Notes under the pieces: generated by a model | Seen by the model: only the letters and a program-made list of their open reading frames with translations | Database searches by the model: none | What the model was told of the DNA's origin: nothing | In this document: positions 2,583 to 50,382 of the stretch, piece by piece | How positions within the stretch are numbered: the stretch's first letter is position 1 | Layout of the letters: every line of letters starts with the position of its first letter | Assembly: GCA_951406725.2 (NCBI GenBank) | Contig: OX597821.1 | Coordinates: 15,996,001-16,060,000 of the forward strand | Length of the DNA: 64,000 nucleotides | From: Octopus vulgaris | Taxonomy: Eukaryota | Reading direction: 5' to 3' | Position numbers and translations under genes: made by a program

Positions 2583-2819
2583 GTAACTGTATACACATCT
2601 AGGTATATGCATATAAAGTGTAATATTGTCGCAGCAATTAAACGCTGTTAGTATTTGTCTGAATTTTAATTAAATACGCCATACATATTCGGCGAATTCG
2701 CCAATTACGTACATGCTACAAGGACATATTGTTCATTCAGCCGATCGGTGCATATGAACCTATAAACACACACACACATATATATGTATACATATACTTA
2801 TGTATATACATATACATCT

Positions 2820-2860
<41 letters not shown>

Positions 2861-2877
2861 CATATAATTATGTATAT

Positions 2878-3980
2878 ACGCAAATAACAAGCGGTGTCCC
2901 ACAGGGCACTGTCTTGGGGCCACTGATGTTCATAGTGGCCCTTTCAGACATGCCTTCAGTTGCTACGATGACCACCCTTGCTAGCTATGCAGATGACACA
3001 AAAGTCTCCCACGCAATACAAAACCCTGAAAATATTGCGCATCTGCAACATGAGCTGGACACAATATACAGGTGGGCTGAGGACAACAACATGCAGTTTA
3101 ATGCAGGTAAGTTCCAGGCCCTGCGCTACTGGCACACAAAGGTAAATGACGTGAAGACTGGATACACTGGCCCAGGAAGAATTGCAATCCCTGAGTCAAA
3201 ATCAGTGCGTGACCTGGGCATTTACATGAGCAATGATGCATCTTTCCAAATGCATATTGCTAATCTGGTGATAAAATGCAGACGGCTAGCTGGATGGATT
3301 CTCCGAACTTTCAGAACAAGAGAGAAGGAGACACTGATGGTCCTATGGAAAACATTCTTCCTCAGCCGCTTGGACTACTGCTCCCAACTGTGGTCACCAC
3401 ACAATATAAAACTAACAGCAGAACTCGAAGCAATTCAAAGAAGCTACACAAAGAAGATCGTCTCAATGCAAAATATCAGCTACTGGGAAAGACTGAAAGT
3501 ATTAAACCTCTTCTCCCTAGAGCGAAGGCGAGAGAGATATGCGGTGATATACATTTGGAAAATCTTGGAGGGTCTTGTCCCAAACTTTGGCATTCAAAGT
3601 TACCCAAACCGTAGAACAGGGCGCCACTGCATGGTACCAAAAATTCCAACATCACCATCCAAATACAGGTCCAGATACTGCAACAGCTTGGGTTTCAGAG
3701 GACCACAGCTCTTTAACATCCTCCCTAAATGCCTGAGAGACTTACATGGTGTGGATGTGGGTTTCTTTAAAACTAAACTGGATCTCTTCTTGTTGGGAGT
3801 CCCAGATGAACCTACCTCACGACAGGAGACACGGATGCGGGCAGCAGCATCGAACTCCCTTGTTGATCAAGTGCCACGTATCAGAGGTGGATTCACAGAC
3901 TAGTGTAGCTCATTCAGCGGTGGTGCCCCAGCATGGCCGCGGCCTTCGGGCTAAAACATTTTTAAGGATTTAAGGATTTA
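2878..3980 (+). mobile_element. LINE copy A (CR1-group non-LTR retrotransposon), 5'-truncated; open ORF2 C-terminal half + 3' UTR + (TTTAAGGA)n tail
   Basis: RT motifs [37 protein letters not shown]; stop at 3901-3903; 3' double hairpin and short tandem tail. Confidence 0.93.
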
Positions 3981-4018
3981 TACATATACATCTACATATA
4001 TATATATATATATATATA

Positions 4019-4358
4019 TAGTGTAGCTCATTCAGCAGTGGTGCCCCAACATGGCTGCGGCCTAAAACATTTTTAAGGATTTAAGGATTTATATATGTGT
4101 AGATGTATATACATAAGTATATTTATATATATATATACATATATATGTAGATGTATATGTATATACATAATTATATGTATATATATATATATATATATAC
4201 ATATAATTATGTATATACATATACATCTACATATATATGTATATATATATATAAATATACTTATGTATATACATCTACACATATATAAATCCTTAAATCC
4301 TTAAAAATGTTTTAGGCCGCAGCCATGTTGGGGCACCACCGCTGAATGAGCTACACTA
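4019..4358. repeat. 340-bp near-perfect palindrome (LINE 3' tail + TA-derived satellite, mirrored about 4188/4189)
   Basis: ORF-track entries 4073..4282(-) and 4095..4304(+) give identical peptides; I see one mismatch between arms (cagcAgtgg vs cagcGgtgg). Confidence 0.92.
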
Positions 4359-6876
4359 GTTTGTGAATCCACCTCTGATACGTGGCACTTGATCAACAAG
4401 GGAGTTCGATGCTGCTGCCCGCATCCGTGTCTCCTGTCGTGAGGTAGGTTCATCTGGGACTCCCAACAAGAAGAGATCCAGTTTAGTTTTAAAGAAACCC
4501 ACATCCACACCATGTAAGTCTCTCAGGCATTTAGGGAGGATGTTAAAGAGCTGTGGTCCTCTGAAACCCAAGCTGTTGCAGTATCTGGACCTGTATTTTG
4601 ATGGTGATGTTGGAATCCTTGGCACCACGCAGCGGCGCCTCGTTCTGCGGTTGGAGTAACTTTGAATGCCAAAGTTTGGGACAAGACCTTCCAGGATTTT
4701 CCAGATGTATATCACTGCATATCTCTCCCCTCCGCTCTAGGGAGAAGAGGTTTAATACCTTCAGTCTTTCCCAGTAGATGACATTTTGCATTGAGACGAT
4801 TTTCTTTGTGTAGCTTCTCTGAGTTGCTTCGAGTTCTGCTGTTTGTTTTATATTGTGTGGTGACCAAAGTTGGGAGCAGTAGTCCAAGCGGCTGAGGACA
4901 AATGTTTTCCATAGGACCATCAGTGCCTCCTTCTCTCTTGTTCTGAAAGTTCGGAGAATCCATCCAGCTAGCCGTCTGCATTTTATCACCAGATTAGCAA
5001 TATGCATTTGGAAAGATGCATCATTGCTCATGTAAATGCCCAGGTCACGCACTGATTTTGACTCAGGGATTGCAATTCTTCCTGGGCCAGTGTATCCAGT
5101 CTTCACGTCATTTACCTTTGTGTGCCAGTAGCGCAGGGCCTGGAACTTACCTGCATTAAACTGCATGTTGCTGTCCTCAGCCCACCTGTATATTGTGTCC
5201 AGCTCATGTTGCAGATGCGCAATATTTTCAGGGTTTTGTATTGCGTGGGAGACTTTTGTGTCATCTGCATAGCTAGCAAGGGTGGTCATCGTAGCAACTG
5301 AAGGCATGTCTGAAAGGGCCACTATGAACATCAGTGGCCCCAAGACAGTGCCCTGTGGGACACCGCTTGTTATTTGCGTTTCCCTGGAGGTGGCTCCATT
5401 GCTCACAACTGCCTGTTTTCTGTCTTTTAGGAAGTTGTGCAGCCACTCTCCAAGTTTCCCGCCTATGCCGAGACCACGCAGTTTGTGACAGATCATACCA
5501 TGGTCGACTTTATCAAAGGCTTTTGCAAAGTCAAGATATATTACATCCACATTTGAGCCATTTAGTAGCTGTTTCAACACCCAGTCATAGTGTTGCAGGA
5601 GCTGTGTTAGGCAGCCTCTACCTGGTCGAAATCCATGCTGGGTGTCAGACAGTAAGTCATTTTCTTCAAGGAACATGATTAGTTTCTTACGGACTATTCG
5701 TTCCATGACTTTGCTGATGTGTGAGGTGAGAGAGATAGGCCTATAATTTTTAGCATCTGCTCTGCTACCTCCCTTACGGATAGGGCATATTACCCCCTCT
5801 TTCAGTTTGACTGGGAGCTTACCACTTGCAAGAAAGCTCTGAAAAAGAAGCTGTAGCGGTTTTGCCAGGGCTCGTTTGCACGATTTGAGAAGGATCGCTG
5901 GGAATCCATCAGGTCCAGCAGCTGAGTTTGTGTCAATCTCATCAATGGCTAGTGTGATATCATCTTCTTCGATGTTGATGTACTCAATTTTTGTCTCTTT
6001 GGCCGCTGGTAAAGTGGCAAAGAATTCTTCTGGGTTGTTTACTTGCCTGTGTCCTAGAGGTGTAGTGAACACACTTTGGAACTGTTCGTTCAGTATTTCA
6101 CTTATCCTCGTGGGATTTCATGTGAGAGAGCCATCTTTTTGGAAGAGAGGTCCTATTCTCTGATGCACTGTGGCTGTCTCTTTGGCAAACTTAAAGAAAG
6201 CTTTAGGGTTTGATTTTATATTTTCTATTACCCAAGCTTCTTTATCTGCTCTCTCCTTTCCATGGGACTGATGTAGACTTTTCTCAGTTTCCATTAGCAT
6301 TCTTTCGAGCCGAGACTTCTCACCACTTTTGGTGTGCTTGCTCAGGCGGTTTGCAATTCTTGTCCGTCGTCTCATAAGAATCCTCCTTTCTCTAGGGATC
6401 CTGTTTTTGTTCTTGTGTGTGCTGGCCCTGCACATTGGGACATATTTGTCACATATGGCTTGTATTATGGACATGAAGTGTTTGTGTTTAATGCTTATGT
6501 CCGGTGTGGAGAGACATTCAGGCCAATCCTGTTTGAGGATCTCTTTCTCAATCGACTTCCAGTTGGCTTTATGAAAGTTTAAGTTGGAGAGATGGTGGGT
6601 GCTTCGTATAGGCTATGTGTCTGCGGGGGCTTTTGTTCCATACATAGACAGCTCTATTATGTTGTGATCCGAGATCATTGTCGGCATCACATTAACATTA
6701 TGGATAATATCCATATTGTTTGTGAAGCAGAGATCCAGTATATTATCTGCCCTTGTTGGTTGCAGAACTATTTGCTCCATGAAAGAGGCATTTGTAAGAT
6801 GAAGCAGGGAATCCACCTGTGCCTGATGATGGTGTGTCATCCCTGGGAGCATCTGCCCCCCAGGCCATTCCACATT
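4286..6876 (-). mobile_element. LINE copy B (same subfamily as A), 5'-truncated inside the APE endonuclease; ORF2 pseudogene
   Basis: [16 protein letters not shown] (APE C-terminus), NFHKANW linker, AAGPDG, NYRPISLTS, QHGFR, LDFAKAFDKVDH, PQGTVLGP, YADD. ORFs 6613..6912, 6118..6474 and 4543..6072 are one frame broken by stops at 6613-6615 and 6118-6120; 2-nt deletion frameshift near 4725. Confidence 0.95.
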
Positions 6877-6913
6877 ATATATACATATATACATATACTT
6901 ATGTATATACATC

Positions 6914-6960
<47 letters not shown>

Positions 6961-7626
6961 CATATACTTATATATATATATATATACATATACTTATGTA
7001 TATACATATACATCTACATATATATATATATATACATATACTTATGTATATACATATACATCTACATATATATATATATACATATACTTATGTATATACA
7101 TATACATCTACATATATATATATATACATATACTTATGTATATACATATACATCTACATATATATATATATACATATACTTATATATATATATACATATA
7201 CTTATGTATATACATATACATCTACATATATATATACATATACATCTACATATATATATATACATATACTTATGTATATACATATACATCTACATATATA
7301 TATATACATACACTTATGTATATACATATACAACTACATATATATATATACATATACATCTACATATATATATATACATATACATCTACATATATATATA
7401 TACATATACATCTACATATATATATATACATATACATCTACATATATATATATACATATACATCTACATATATATATATATATATATACATATACTTATG
7501 TATATACATATGCATCTACATATATATATATACATACACTTATGTATATACATATACAACTACATATATATATATACTTATAATTATGTATATACATATA
7601 CATCTACATATATATACATATACATA
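6877..7626. repeat. TA-derived higher-order minisatellite (unit ~CATATACTTATGTATATACATATACATCTACA(TA)n)
   Basis: Recurrent cttatg and catctaca landmarks; the same unit occurs at 2790-2878, 3980-4018 and 4090-4285. Confidence 0.9.
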
Positions 7627-9699: not shown

Positions 9700-10565
9700 G
9701 GCGCAGGCGTGGCTGTGTGGTTAGAAACTTGCTCTTCAAGCTCATGGTTCCAGTCGTGTCTCATTGCATGGTACCTTGGGCAAGTATTTTCTATTATAGA
9801 TTCGGGTGGACCAACCTTGTCGGTAGATTTGCTTAACAGAAGCTAAAAGAACTAAAAGCGGCGAACTGGCAGAAACGTTAGCACGCCGGGCGAAATGCGT
9901 AGCCGTATTTCGTCTGCCGTTACGTTCTGAGTTCAAATTCTGCCGAGGTCAATTTGCTTTTCATCCTTTCGGAGCCGATAAATTAAGTACCAGTTATGCA
10001 CTGGGGTCGATGTAATTGATTTAAACCGTTTGTATATCCTTGTTTGTCCTCTCTGTGTATAGCCCCTTGAGGGTAGTAAAGAAATAGGTATTAGGTATTT
10101 TGTCTGCCGATATGTTCTGAACTGAAATTCCACTGAGGTCGACTTTGCCTTTCATCCTTCGGGGTCGATAAATTAAGAACCAGTTATGCACTGGAGTCGA
10201 TGTAATCGACTCAATCCCTTTGTCTGTCCTTGTTTGTCCACTCTGTATGTAGCCCCTTGTGGGCAATACAGAAATAGGAAACTAAAAGAAGCTCGTCGAA
10301 TATATATGTGTGTGTATGTGTGCATGTGTGTGCGCGCTTGCGTGAGTGTCTATCTACGTTTATGTGTCTTTATGTCTGTGCTTACGCACTACCACCACCG
10401 CTAGATGACAGTGTTGGTGTGGTTGCATCCCAGTAACATAGCGGTTCGGTCAAATAAATCCAATAACATATGTACTAGGTCGATTCATTCGACAGAAATC
10501 TCAAGGCGGTACCCCAGCATGGCCGCAAACTAATGACTGAAACAAGTAAAATGATAAATGATAAG
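9700..10565 (+). mobile_element. tRNA-derived SINE (family 1, CORE-like centre), interrupted by a nested SINE
   Basis: Head ggcgcaggcgtggctgtgtgg, ccttgggcaagt; resumes after 10278; tail ggcggtaccccagcatggccgc...gactgaaacaagtaaaa. Confidence 0.8.
9858..10278 (+). mobile_element. SINE family 2 (Nin/Deu-domain-like centre) with tandemly duplicated 3' part, nested in a family 1 SINE
   Basis: gcggcgaactggcagaaacgttagc head; gagttcaaattc B-box; gcctttcatccttcggggtcgataaattaag core present twice. Confidence 0.8.
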
Positions 10566-45737: not shown

Positions 45738-45874
45738 TAATACTAAGCAATACAGTTATAGCTATTTCTTCTACTAAAAAGGGAGATCTCAGTAAAAACA
45801 CAGCAATTGGAAGGCAGACACAAACAGGTAAGAGAGAATGAATTGACGGCAATCTATCATACAATTTTAAGTTA

Positions 45875-45974
45875 TCTACGGACGCACGTTTCGAAATCAA
45901 GTTTTTAGGAAAGCATAAGAATTAAATATTAAATAATTCTACCTTACCCAAACTTCTTTTCTCTTCAGCGTAGA
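45875..45974 (-). ncRNA. Type I hammerhead ribozyme (inverted copy)
   Basis: Reverse complement of 46310-46409. Confidence 0.8.
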
Positions 45975-46309
45975 ATACTATAATCATAAATGAATATATA
46001 TTGAATTTTGAGATACTAGAAGGCACCAACTCAACTCAATATCAGAGCGAGCTAGAATCCGCAACTAGTATCACCAAATTCAAAGTGTGAATGAAAAGAT
46101 TGTGTCACCAGCCCCTTCCCACCCGCGTGTAGCCAAAGCAAGATGCGGTGGTCATCTACTGAGATAAAATATGGTCATCCGTAATAATGAAGGGTGAAAT
46201 TTGAATTTGGTGATACTAGTTGCGGATTCTAGCTCGCTCTGATACTGAGTTGAGTTGGTGCCTTCTAGTATCTCAAAATTCAATATATAATCATTTATGA
46301 TTATAGTAT

Positions 46310-46409
46310 TCTACGCTGAAGAGAAAAGAAGTTTGGGTAAGGTAGAATTATTTAATATTTAATTCTTATGCTTTCCTAAAAACTTGATTTCGAAACGTGC
46401 GTCCGTAGA
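46310..46409 (+). ncRNA. Type I hammerhead ribozyme with canonical core and extended stem II
   Basis: TCTACG-CTGAAGA-GAAA..(~60 nt)..TTTC-GAAAC-gtgc-GTC-CGTAGA; 6-bp stem I; predicted cleavage after C46403. Confidence 0.8.
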
Positions 46410-46629
46410 TAACTTAAAATTGTATGATAGATTGCCGTCAATTCATTCTCTCTTACCTGTTTGTGTCTGCCTTCCAATTGCTGTGTTTTTACTGAGATCT
46501 CCCGAAGACTTTTAATTGAGTAGAAGAAATAGCTATAACTCTTTGACTGCTATTTCTAAATTCGGTCTGTGGTAAGGCAATTCGTTGCTAAACCCTTTAT
46601 TGCTTAGTATATAACTCTTTGACTAAATA

Positions 46630-48100
<1,471 letters not shown>

Positions 48101-49182
48101 ATTGATTGATTGATTGATTGATTCTAGTTTCAGCTTATGAGCTGTGGCCATGCTGGGGCACCGCCATTTGGTGTTGCTACTTGGTTTCACTTCATGGAGG
48201 CTTTCTAGCAACTGCTATTTGGTGCATGAGAGAGTTCGATGCAGCTGCCCTCATCTGCCCCTCCTGCCGTGAAGTTGGTTCATCTGGGACACCTGACAGG
48301 AAGAGATCCAGCTCCATTTTAAAGACATCTGTATCCACCCCATGCAGGTCTCTCAGGTTCTTCGGGAGGATATTGAAGAGCTGTGGGCCTCGGAAGCCCA
48401 GGCTATCACAGAATCTTGTCCTACATCTTGATGGCAAGTTTGGAGTCCTAGGCACCACCCAGTGGCGCCCAGTTCTGGCATTTGCGTAACTCTCGATGCC
48501 AAAGTTCAGGACACTTCCCTCCAGGATCTTCCAGATGTATATTATGGCATATCTTTCCCGCCTACGCTCCAGGGAATATAATTTTAATCTCTTGAGTCTT
48601 TCCCAGTAGCTTACATTCTGCATAGAGGCTATCATCTTCGTGTAGATTCGTTGGATCGCCTCCAGTTCTGTGATCAACTTGACACTGGATGGTGACCATA
48701 GCTGAGAGCAATAGTCAAAGTGACTTAGGACAAGTGTCTTCCAGAGGACCATCATGGTTTCTTGTTCTCTTGTTCTAAAGGTTCTAAGAATCCATCCAGC
48801 CAGCCGTCTGCATTTCAATGTCAGTTTAGCAACATGTACATGAAAGGTCGCGTCATCACTCATGTGAATACCCAGGTCACGCACTGATTGTGCCTCTGGG
48901 ATTGCAATCCCTCCGAGTCCAGTGTATTCCTTGGGTATTGCATTCAGTTTTGCATGCTGATAGTATAAAGCTTGAAACTTTTCAGCATTGAACTGCATGC
49001 TATTCTTTTCAGCCCACTTGTATATTTCGTCCAGCTCATATTGCAGGTGCTGAGTGTCTTCAGGGTTCTGTATTGCCTGTGAAACTTTTGTATCATCTGC
49101 ATAACTTGTGATCGTGGCTCTCCGCGTGGCTGAGGGCATGTCTGAGAGGGCCATTATGAACAGTAGTGGTCCCAAAACAGTG
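48101..49182 (-). mobile_element. LINE copy C (second CR1-group subfamily), 5'-truncated, (AATC)n tail
   Basis: ORF 48192..49175: [25 protein letters not shown]; clearly homologous to but diverged from A/B. Confidence 0.93.
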
Positions 49183-49212
49183 TATGTATGTATGTATGTA
49201 TATATATATATG

Positions 49213-49251
<39 letters not shown>

Positions 49252-49933
49252 GTATATATATATGTGTATATATATATGTATATATATATGTATATATATA
49301 TGTGTATATATATATATATGTATATATATATGTGTATATATATATATGTTTATATATGTGTATATATATATGTATATATATGTGTATATATATATGTGTA
49401 TATATATATGTATATATATATGTGTATATATATATATGTATATATATATGTGTATATATATATATATGTATATATATATGTGTATATATATATATGTATA
49501 TATATATGTGTATATATATATGTATATATATATGTGTATATATATATGTGTATATATATGTGTGTATAGATATGTGTATATATATATGTGTATATATATG
49601 TGTATATATATGTGTATATATATATGTGTATATATATATGTGTATATATATATGTATATATATATGAGTATATATATATGTATATATATGTGTATATATA
49701 TATGTATATATATATGTGTATATATATATGTTTATATATATATGTATATATATATATGTATGTATATATATATGTATATATATATATGTATATATATATA
49801 TATGTGTATATATATATATATGTGTGTATATATATATGTATATATATGTGTGTATATATATATGTATATATATATGTGTATATATATATGTATATATATA
49901 TGTGTATATATATATGTGTATATATATATATGT
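49183..49933. repeat. (TA)n/TATGTG satellite between LINE copies C and D
   Basis: Direct inspection. Confidence 0.95.
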
Positions 49934-50382
49934 ATATGCCATAATATACATCTGGAAGATCCTGGAGGGAAGTGTCCTGAACTTTGGCATCGAGAGTTAC
50001 GCAAATGCCAGAACTGGGCGCCACTGCGTGGTGCCTAGGACTCCAAACTTGCCATCAAGATGTAGGACAAGATTCTGTGATAGCCTGGGCTTCCGATGCC
50101 CACAGCTCTTCAATATCCTCCCGAAGAACCTGAGAGACCTGCATGGGGTGGATACAGATGTCTTTAAAATGGAGCTGGATCTCTTCCTGTCAGGTGTCCC
50201 AGATGAACCAACTTCACGGCAGGAGGGGCAGATGAGGGCAGCTGCATCGAACTCTCTCATGCACCAAATAGCAGTTGCTAGAAAGCCTCCATGAAGTGAA
50301 ACCAAGTAGCAACACCAAATGGCGGTGCCCCAGCATGGCCACAGCTCATAAGCTGAAACTAGAATCAATCAATCAATCAATC
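49934..50382 (+). mobile_element. LINE copy D, 3' ~450 bp, near-identical inverted duplicate of the end of copy C
   Basis: [12 protein letters not shown]...VARKPP plus 3' hairpins and (AATC)n; only two substitutions seen versus C. Confidence 0.93.

What the first reader, a model, noticed from the sequence alone, without database searches (positions are those of the whole stretch)
2780..7626. LINE cluster 1: tail-to-tail LINE pair plus an extra tail, every junction filled with the same TA-derived satellite
Seen: three pieces of one LINE subfamily lie within 4 kb: A(+) 2878-3980, a 72-bp tail(+) 4019-4090 and B(-) 4286-6876. Every junction contains the same locus-specific unit (..CTTATGTATATACATATACATCTACA..), amplified into a 750-bp array at the 5' end of B. 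Junctions show 2-3 nt microhomology to the TA tract (tat-ACG-caaat; tata-TA-gtgtag). Established: twin priming gives an inversion with only one 3' tail, so it does not explain three tails. Inference: insertion into self-complementary (TA)n lets a polymerase (ORF2p or repair) switch strand and slip repeatedly, co-generating inverted LINE duplicates and new satellites. This could help explain TA-satellite expansion in such genomes.
Basis: partly seen in the sequence, partly recalled or inferred. Interest (0 to 1): 0.75.

Follow-up and report, generated by a model that had tools for sequence, protein, structure and literature searches.

The report
Fold-back copying at TA-embedded LINEs
Two copies of a jumping gene that favours TA repeats face each other inside a TA-rich repeat array that likely predates them; the third "tail" is a mirror copy of one of them, likely made when DNA copying folded back on the TA run and likely also overwrote parts of the older copy, a known kind of copying error rather than a new satellite-making machine.

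Summary
The anatomy is real, but the pieces have different origins. The extra tail and its flank are one arm of a 340-bp palindrome centred on (TA)11: a mirror copy of B's tail plus B's 3' flank, carrying B's own variants. A is not a duplicate of B. It is a young-old-young mosaic with a 4-bp target duplication, and it shares one rare allele with B. The satellite is locus-specific, runs the same way on both sides of A and B, and rejoins perfectly across A, so it likely predates them. The family prefers (TA)n about tenfold (448 of 710 tails versus 6.1% background). Inverted close pairs are not in excess (7 loci versus 11 direct), and long TA arrays rarely touch the family (1 of 11). Best reading: two ordinary insertions, then template switches copying B leftwards. 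Similar TA-centred fold-backs occur at two other family loci. Reads could not test the junctions. Earlier scan notes report TA-targeting Penelope elements and homogenised palindromes elsewhere in this genome; a look-up by this sequence found nothing.

The parts
2770..2879 (+). Left part of the locus-specific TA-derived minisatellite (forward orientation); ends in the left copy of A's 4-bp target duplication (2876-2879)
   Evidence: exact 26-nt unit at 2797; orientation words 29 forward, 3 reverse
2878..3980 (+). LINE copy A: 5'-truncated, 3' half of RT plus C-terminal domain, 3' UTR and (AAGGATTT)n tail; young-old-young mosaic
2878..3356 (+). 5' young-type tract of A (right edge between 3259 and 3356), carrying the rare T at 3223 shared with B 5034; likely copied from B
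   Evidence: 10 of 10 diagnostic sites young; allele counts
3357..3660 (+). Old-subfamily core of A; likely the unconverted remnant of the original insertion
   Evidence: 11 old alleles in a row; 12 differences from the old majority in 302 nt, 5 shared with L062; best genomic match 97%
3661..3930 (+). 3' young-type tract of A (left edge 3661-3794, right edge 3900-3930); likely copied from B
   Evidence: 3 young alleles and 1 private among 4 diagnostic sites
3980..4020 (+). Right copy of A's target duplication (3980-3983), half unit of the satellite and (TA)12 at 3997-4020 (likely switch-back site, 2-nt TA overlap)
4019..4188 (+). Left arm of the palindrome: extra tail 4019-4091 with B's tail variants, mirrored B 3' flank 4092-4177, half of the TA centre
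   Evidence: 170-nt arm, one mismatch 4037/4340 at a CpG; orientation words 7 forward, 34 reverse
4178..4199 (.). (TA)11 tract at the palindrome centre (4188/4189); likely fold-back site
   Evidence: predicted DNA hairpin
4189..4358 (+). Right (template) arm: forward satellite 4200-4285 and B's tail
4286..6876 (-). LINE copy B: young subfamily, 5'-truncated at about 2.6 of 5.6 kb; end of APE endonuclease, RT, 3' UTR with a 7-bp deletion, tail; ORF2 broken by a stop and a frameshift
6877..7626 (+). 750-bp main body of the same minisatellite, forward orientation
   Evidence: TRF; six exact units; 460 forward, 0 reverse words (the words were drawn from this array)

Best explanation
Two copies of a TA-preferring LINE sit tail to tail in a locus-specific TA minisatellite that likely predates them, and the extra tail is a mirror copy of B's tail and flank, likely made by a DNA polymerase folding back on the (TA)11 tract; the same kind of switch likely overwrote both ends of the older copy A with B's sequence. 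Steps: (1) a (TA)n tract aged into a minisatellite of about 0.9-1 kb (inferred). (2) An older-subfamily copy, A, inserted by target-primed reverse transcription with a 4-bp duplication (duplication shown, mechanism inferred). (3) A young copy, B, inserted in the opposite orientation about 150 bp away (inferred). (4) The strand made right to left through B, its flank and the TA tract folded back, recopied 86 nt of flank and 73 nt of B's tail, and rejoined the TA tract by a 2-nt overlap (product shown, mechanism inferred). (5) With A and B an imperfect inverted repeat, switches onto B's sequence replaced A's 5' and 3' parts and left an old core (mosaic shown, donor inferred). Steps 4 and 5 all copy B leftwards and look about equally old, so they may be one multi-switch episode (speculative).
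For: Palindrome of 170-nt arms, one mismatch, centred on (TA)11. The extra tail has B's three tail variants; among 80 other unique copies these occur in 2, 13 and 1, never together. Satellite orientation is forward on both sides of A and of B and reversed only in the mirrored arm; joining A's flanks with a 4-bp duplication gives a 37-mer found intact at 4199, and no other length from 0 to 8 does. A reads 10 young, 1 private, 11 old, then 3 young and 1 private at 26 diagnostic sites (runs test p=5e-6); no such block in 80 other copies. The T at 3223/5034 is in 0 of 61 other aligned copies. Genome-wide, exact 25-mers with T number 8 (A, B and six copies only 71-90% identical to B) against 917 with G. 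No donor for the old core closer than 97% among the 40 best of 2624 candidates. Each copied tract differs from B by one change (4037; 3898; B 5171), consistent with one age. TA-centred mirror copies including LINE tails and flanks at two other loci. Conversion of imperfect inverted repeats and creation of new ones by template switching is documented (PMC5453318, PMC8755829; passages).
Against: The A-from-B link rests on one shared rare allele plus the mosaic. B has the old allele at one site inside A's old core (window 4738), which also occurs in 5 of 51 young rows. A's old core shares 5 alleles with a copy 228 kb away (L062), so an ectopic donor lineage is not excluded. The 5' tract reaches to within 2 nt of A's end, so A's present 5' junction may itself be a switch-back site. 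Copies were fetched by similarity to A or B, not at random. The junctions could not be checked on reads. No empty orthologous site was seen.
Confidence: 0.6

Rival explanations
1. A is a young sibling of B from the same rare source element, and its old core came later by ectopic gene conversion from a distant old copy; the extra tail is still a fold-back.
For: A lacks B's other private changes. The old core shares 5 alleles with L062, 228 kb away.
Against: No other young copy carries the shared T. L062 still differs at 8 of 302 sites, while A's young parts have one private change. It needs two rare coincidences instead of one local process.
Confidence: 0.15
2. The palindrome, the mosaic or both are assembly or polishing artefacts: fold-back reads at the TA hairpin, or reads from B mis-correcting A.
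For: Both structures lie in simple repeats. Laid contigs gave no coverage across the junctions because repeats were skipped. The read technology behind G000 is not given.
Against: The arms differ by a CpG-type transition. A lacks B's change at 5171 inside the shared tract and has its own at 3898. The structure needs a switch and a switch back after 170 nt. Mirror copies elsewhere show arm differences.
Confidence: 0.12
3. One reading: insertion into (TA)n lets ORF2p or repair switch strand and slip, creating the inverted LINE copies and the satellite in the same event.
For: The family prefers (TA)n. The unit is locus-specific. One head-to-head pair with shared variants and unmirrored flanks (L256) could be double priming by ORF2p.
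Against: The satellite is collinear across A and B and rejoins perfectly. A has an old core. No excess of inverted pairs. 10 of 11 long arrays do not touch the family; no 5'/3' asymmetry. Double tail priming gives tails pointing outward, not tail to tail.
Confidence: 0.07
4. The extra tail was reverse-transcribed by ORF2p from a read-through RNA of B (tail plus flank), primed by a nick in the same TA tract.
For: Tail-only inserts of 45-70 nt are common in this family (19 of 82 unique junction pairs). An RNA template gives the same strand as a fold-back.
Against: It needs a promoterless, truncated B to be transcribed and copied back into its own flank. The centre is a clean TA palindrome with no added tail. 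Fold-backs elsewhere mirror non-LINE sequence as well.
Confidence: 0.06

Closest known systems
Short-range template switching and quasi-palindrome correction (four-point model; Loytynoja and Goldman 2017, PMC5453318, passages read; PMC8755829, passages read)
   Same: Two switches create a new inverted repeat, or turn an imperfect inverted repeat into a near-perfect one, with the nascent or opposite strand as template.
   Different: Tracts here are 170 to about 480 nt, longer than the short events in the passages seen. The fold-back point is a (TA)n microsatellite, whereas that study kept to complex, unique regions. The repaired repeat is a pair of LINE copies from two subfamilies.
CR1/L2-type APE LINE insertions (PMC4245944, passages read)
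   Same: Two ORFs, APE plus RT, 5' truncation, 5' microhomology, short target duplication (3-5 bp peak reported for L2 and similar for CR1; 4 bp here), short-repeat tail.
   Different: About tenfold preference for (TA)n tracts; clade not fixed by a phylogeny here.
Microsatellite-targeting non-LTR elements: Waldo (ACAY), Mino (AC), Kibi (TC), Koshi (TTC), Dong (TAA) (PMC3812793, passages read)
   Same: Insertion concentrated in one kind of microsatellite.
   Different: The target is (TA)n, which that 2013 list gives only for Micron MITEs. It is a preference (63%), not strict specificity. Another paper names only Tx1 and R1 as site-specific APE clades (PMC13295347, passage).
Penelope-like elements (Naiad, Neptune) biased to (TA)n with inverted insertions (PMC8557442, passages read)
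   Same: Retroelements in TA tracts with local inverted copies; Naiads are reported in Octopus.
   Different: This element is an APE-type LINE, not a GIY-YIG Penelope, and its mirror copy includes host flank, so it is not part of the insertion unit.
L1 twin priming (recalled, not from a call)
   Same: Gives inverted LINE pieces at one site.
   Different: Gives one 3' tail and one outer target duplication; here there are three tails, separate target sites and mirrored flank.

Membership tests
APE-type non-LTR retrotransposon (LINE) | ORF2 with N-terminal APE endonuclease and RT | tested here: met
   Full-length copy L140: 982-aa frame with PF14529/PF03372 and PF00078; B keeps RT and a weak endonuclease remnant
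APE-type non-LTR retrotransposon (LINE) | Fixed 3' end with variable 5' truncation | tested here: met
   Copies from 45 nt to 5.63 kb end at the same tail
CR1 clade | RT groups with reference CR1 elements in a phylogeny | not tested
   No labelled CR1 references were available from calls; homolog names are uninformative. The CR1 label rests on a recalled C-terminal motif resemblance
CR1 clade | No RNase H domain and no C-terminal CCHC knuckle in ORF2 (criterion recalled) | tested here: met
   No RNase H family; no CCHC-type pattern in A's C-terminal 340 aa
CR1 clade | 3' end in a short tandem repeat, not poly(A) (criterion recalled) | tested here: met
   (AAGGATTT)n tails
CR1 clade | Short target duplication of 3-5 bp (PMC4245944) | tested here: inconclusive
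   4 bp for A; not measurable for most copies inside TA
Sequence-specific microsatellite-targeting LINEs (Waldo/Mino/Kibi/Koshi/Dong type) | Near-exclusive insertion into one microsatellite | tested here: not met
   448 of 710 tails have TATATA within 12 nt; 21 of 82 copies have neither flank alternating: strong preference, not specificity
Sequence-specific microsatellite-targeting LINEs (Waldo/Mino/Kibi/Koshi/Dong type) | Endonuclease cleaves the target sequence specifically | not testable with these tools
   Needs an in vitro nicking assay
Template-switch inverted duplication (four-point model) | Inserted fragment is the reverse complement of nearby sequence | tested here: met
   4019-4188 vs 4189-4358: 169 of 170
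Template-switch inverted duplication (four-point model) | Switch points at short complementary sequence | tested here: met
   (TA)11 centre and 2-nt TA overlap at 4019-4020; a 2-nt overlap arises by chance at 13% of junctions
Template-switch inverted duplication (four-point model) | Ancestral allele without the fragment | not testable with these tools
   No relatives of G000 are held; reads did not cover the junction
L1-type twin priming | One 3' tail, inverted 5' piece, no host flank in the inversion | tested here: not met
   Three tails; 86 nt of mirrored flank

The most novel reading that the evidence does not exclude
In this octopus-like genome long (TA)n arrays are both the landing pads of an active CR1-like LINE and hot spots of hairpin-primed template switching. 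One multi-switch episode can mirror-copy a LINE tail and rewrite a neighbouring older copy into a young-old chimera over hundreds of bases, and the symmetric TA target may also let ORF2p prime one RNA tail from both nicks, giving two-tailed head-to-head inserts (L256). TA arrays would then be a routine source of local inverted duplications and of recombinant LINE copies.
Probability: 0.25. Interest if true: 0.6.

Novelty: new variant of a known kind. Interest (0 to 1): 0.36.

Why it matters
As one locus it is a well-resolved case of known processes, not a new system, and it argues against LINE insertion as the maker of TA satellites here. Two points carry beyond the locus. First, an abundant and recently active APE LINE (at least 1425 exact tails) with a tenfold (TA)n preference; I found no such LINE in the 2013 list of microsatellite-targeting elements or in my ten paper searches, but Repbase and Dfam could not be searched. 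Second, TA-centred fold-backs recur at low frequency (3 clear loci in this family, plus a related family in the same window) and can turn old copies into partly young ones. That biases age estimates from divergence, and template switching inside simple repeats, which an earlier survey left aside, becomes countable in this genome.

Tried and rejected
Reads: 21 runs hold part of the stretch, none half of its words. Four runs laid on the left part covered only the shared family tail; repeats were skipped and the raw-read run laid 0 reads, so this is no evidence either way, and the palindrome itself was not tested on reads. A as a plain inverted duplicate of B: rejected (29 differences in 3331-3660, separate flanks and target duplication). 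Satellite made at the 5' end of insertions: rejected. L062 as direct donor of A's core: 8 of 302 mismatches and unrelated flanks. ADAR-type A-to-G clusters as the cause of the A/B differences: the differences are subfamily sites, and no cluster showed among the 17 of 50 young copies with 6 or more changes. RNA fold of the 3' UTR: z = -1.2 for A, +1.4 for B, -2.6 for the related family, so no claim. Atlas and homolog searches gave no clade label. The orientation 10-mers also occur in other TA arrays, so they mark strand only, not locus. Paper searches with no paper holding all terms.
Full report
Observation. A(+) 2878-3980 matches B at 96.3% over 1103 nt and the extra tail(+) 4019-4091 at 98.6% over 73 nt. 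The array is at 6876-7626. B keeps an RT domain (PF00078, E 2.6e-30) and a weak endonuclease remnant. The window lies in a 2.8-Gb genome that I read as octopus-like: the best named homolog is from Argonauta hians at 59% identity.

The family. Three fetched copies share a 5' end about 5.63 kb from the tail; one has a 982-aa ORF2 frame with APE endonuclease and RT, and there is a short upstream ORF with only weak Pfam hits. The tail is (AAGGATTT)n. An exact 28-nt tail word occurs 1425 times. Fifty unique young copies differ from their majority by a median 0.23%, so the family was active recently; an older subfamily differs at 26 diagnostic sites in the last 1.1 kb. I call it CR1-like from a recalled C-terminal motif, the repeat tail and the lack of RNase H or a CCHC knuckle; no phylogeny was run.

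TA preference. Of 710 forward-strand tails, 448 (63%) have TATATA within 12 nt (the reverse count is inflated by overlapping matches and was not used). The background is 6.1% of 199,600 positions in 20 arbitrary 10-kb stretches. The tail's last letters help the match slightly. Among the first 30 tails on contig 1, 17 have an alternating purine-pyrimidine flank against 4.9% background. Of 82 unique copies with both ends, 40 have such flanks on both sides and 21 on neither (6 more rows with LINE sequence as 5' flank and 2 window rows were left out). This is a strong preference, not specificity. Microhomology of 2 nt or more occurs at 12 of 31 pure-TA 5' junctions against 13% by chance, as reported for truncated LINE inserts (PMC4245944, passages).

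The extra tail. Positions 4019-4358 form a palindrome with 170-nt arms, centred in (TA)11, with one mismatch, a CpG-type transition at 4037/4340. The left arm holds B's tail and 86 nt of B's 3' flank in mirror image. It carries B's two tail substitutions and 7-bp deletion, which among 80 other unique copies occur in 2, 13 and 1 copies and never together. It is therefore a local copy of B made after those changes. The simplest route is that the strand running through B into the TA tract folded back, copied itself and rejoined the TA tract by a 2-nt overlap. This is inferred; it fits the four-point template-switch model (PMC5453318, passages). An RNA template read by ORF2p would give the same strand and is not excluded, but has no hallmark here.

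The satellite. Strand-marking words run forward left of A, between A and the tail, left of B and right of B, and reverse only in the mirrored arm. Joining A's flanks with a 4-bp duplication gives a 37-mer that stands intact at 4199; no other length from 0 to 8 does. So A landed in an existing unit, and B interrupts a collinear array. In 25 other copies inside variant arrays, the flanks share more words in the same orientation in 18, inverted in 5, tied in 2. In 800 kb of unselected sequence (200 kb of it beside the window) there are 11 TA arrays of 500 bp or more, and one touches the family. Flanking arrays, measured up to 400 nt a side, are longer at the 5' end in 24 and at the 3' end in 30 of 84 copies (p=0.90). 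The satellite needs no LINE to explain it.

A is a chimera. Differences between A and B cluster in 3331-3660. At 26 diagnostic sites A reads 10 young, 1 private, 11 old, then 3 young with 1 private (p=5e-6); none of 80 other unique copies has such a block, though these were fetched by similarity to A or B. The old core has 12 differences from the old majority in 302 nt, 5 shared with a copy 228 kb away and 7 private; its best match elsewhere is 97% (40 of 2624 candidates scored). The young parts have one private change and one allele shared with B (T at 3223/5034). That allele is in 0 of 61 other aligned copies; genome-wide the exact word with T occurs 8 times, in A, B and six copies only 71-90% like B, against 917 with G. 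One process explains both facts: A was an old insertion whose ends were overwritten from B once the two formed an imperfect inverted repeat, as template switching is known to do (PMC8755829, passage). The three copied tracts each differ from B by one change. With the octopus rate of 0.0036 per million years quoted in PMC13282606 (parts 1-2 of 3 read), rough ages are 6-11 My for A's core, about 2 My for B (12 changes in 1773 nt) and under 1 My for the copying; these are my estimates and assembly errors inflate them.

How general. Exact tail words within 500 nt of each other: tail to tail at 4 loci including this one, head to head at 3, same orientation at 11 loci (17 matches). Inverted pairs are not in excess. 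Of the other three tail-to-tail loci, two look independent and one is ambiguous. Of the head-to-head loci, L254 is a TA-centred mirror copy of a tail, unique sequence and outer flank; L256 has two tails with shared variants but unmirrored flanks and no TA centre; L255 is too short to call. L189 is a TA-centred palindrome with tandemly multiplied tails. Among 100 unique tails with at least 1 kb of 3' flank none had a mirrored tail. In the 800 kb, 8 loci have near-perfect inverted repeats, one centred on a short TA run; several may be MITEs or Penelope ends. The window's second cluster (48102-50380) is a mirror copy of a related family's 3' end, two substitutions in about 450 nt, joined at an ATATG overlap. 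TA-linked fold-backs are thus recurrent but rare.

What is known. A 2013 review lists microsatellite-targeting non-LTR elements for ACAY, AC, TC, TTC and TAA, and TA only for Micron MITEs (PMC3812793, passages). Another paper says only Tx1 and R1 hold site-specific APE LINEs (PMC13295347, passages). (TA)n bias is published for Naiad Penelope elements, which occur in Octopus (PMC8557442, passages). A 2026 octopus annotation lists 13 recently active CR1 families and, in the parts read, says nothing of targets; its supplement and library were not seen. PMC4758252 (passages) added nothing. Ten searches showed no paper on a TA-preferring CR1-like LINE or on TA-centred fold-backs of LINE tails; subscription journals, Repbase and Dfam are not covered.

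Verdict. Observation confirmed; interpretation partly supported. The locus is best read as two insertions into an older TA minisatellite followed by template switches that copied B leftwards (confidence 0.6; the fold-back alone about 0.8, the older satellite about 0.85). An artefact is not excluded because reads did not cover the junctions. Known mechanisms in a new setting; interest 0.36.

Noticed in passing
window 48102-49182 (-) and 49934-50380 (+): Related LINE family (75% to B, (AATC)n tail): the second piece is a mirror copy of the first one's last 450 nt (two substitutions) and its TA flank, joined to the satellite at an ATATG overlap.
   Followed up: partly
L189 (G000:C15:17,295,350-17,296,420): TA-centred palindrome of unique sequence and a Penelope-like end (label recalled), with the LINE tail plus TA multiplied in tandem three times on one side and about five on the other.
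   Followed up: partly
L254 (G000:C7:99,815,000-99,815,550): TA-centred mirror duplication of a 67-nt LINE tail, about 130 nt of other sequence and the outer satellite flank.
   Followed up: partly
L256 (G000:C17:7,519,470-7,519,880) and L255 (G000:C15:32,410,750-32,410,830): Head-to-head inserts with two outward tails; in L256 they share private variants but the flanks are not mirrored. Candidate for priming of one RNA tail from both nicks of a symmetric TA target.
   Followed up: partly
fetched loci such as L108, L109, L111, L114-L116, L119, L123: Tail-only inserts of 45-70 nt are common (19 of 82), many starting near the base of the predicted 3' UTR stem-loop.
   Followed up: no
window 10505-10555, window 50320-50360, flank of L122: The 3' UTR motif of the LINE recurs in a related LINE family and in other short repeats with different tails, as expected for partner SINEs.
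   Followed up: no
window 45740-46600: Element with long inverted arms between TA tracts; the same sequence appears in L040. Likely a MITE or fold-back transposon.
   Followed up: no
L140, L131, L145: Near full-length copies of about 5.63 kb with a long CT-rich 5' region and a short ORF with a weak Myb/SANT-like hit (E 0.024); L140 has a 982-aa frame that runs out of frame near the end.
   Followed up: partly
L149 2097-4768: Nested near-perfect inverted repeats (648-nt arms, several copies) between TA tracts in an arbitrary stretch.
   Followed up: no
L033, L036, L037, L049, L050: An intermediate lineage of young copies keeping three old alleles.
   Followed up: no
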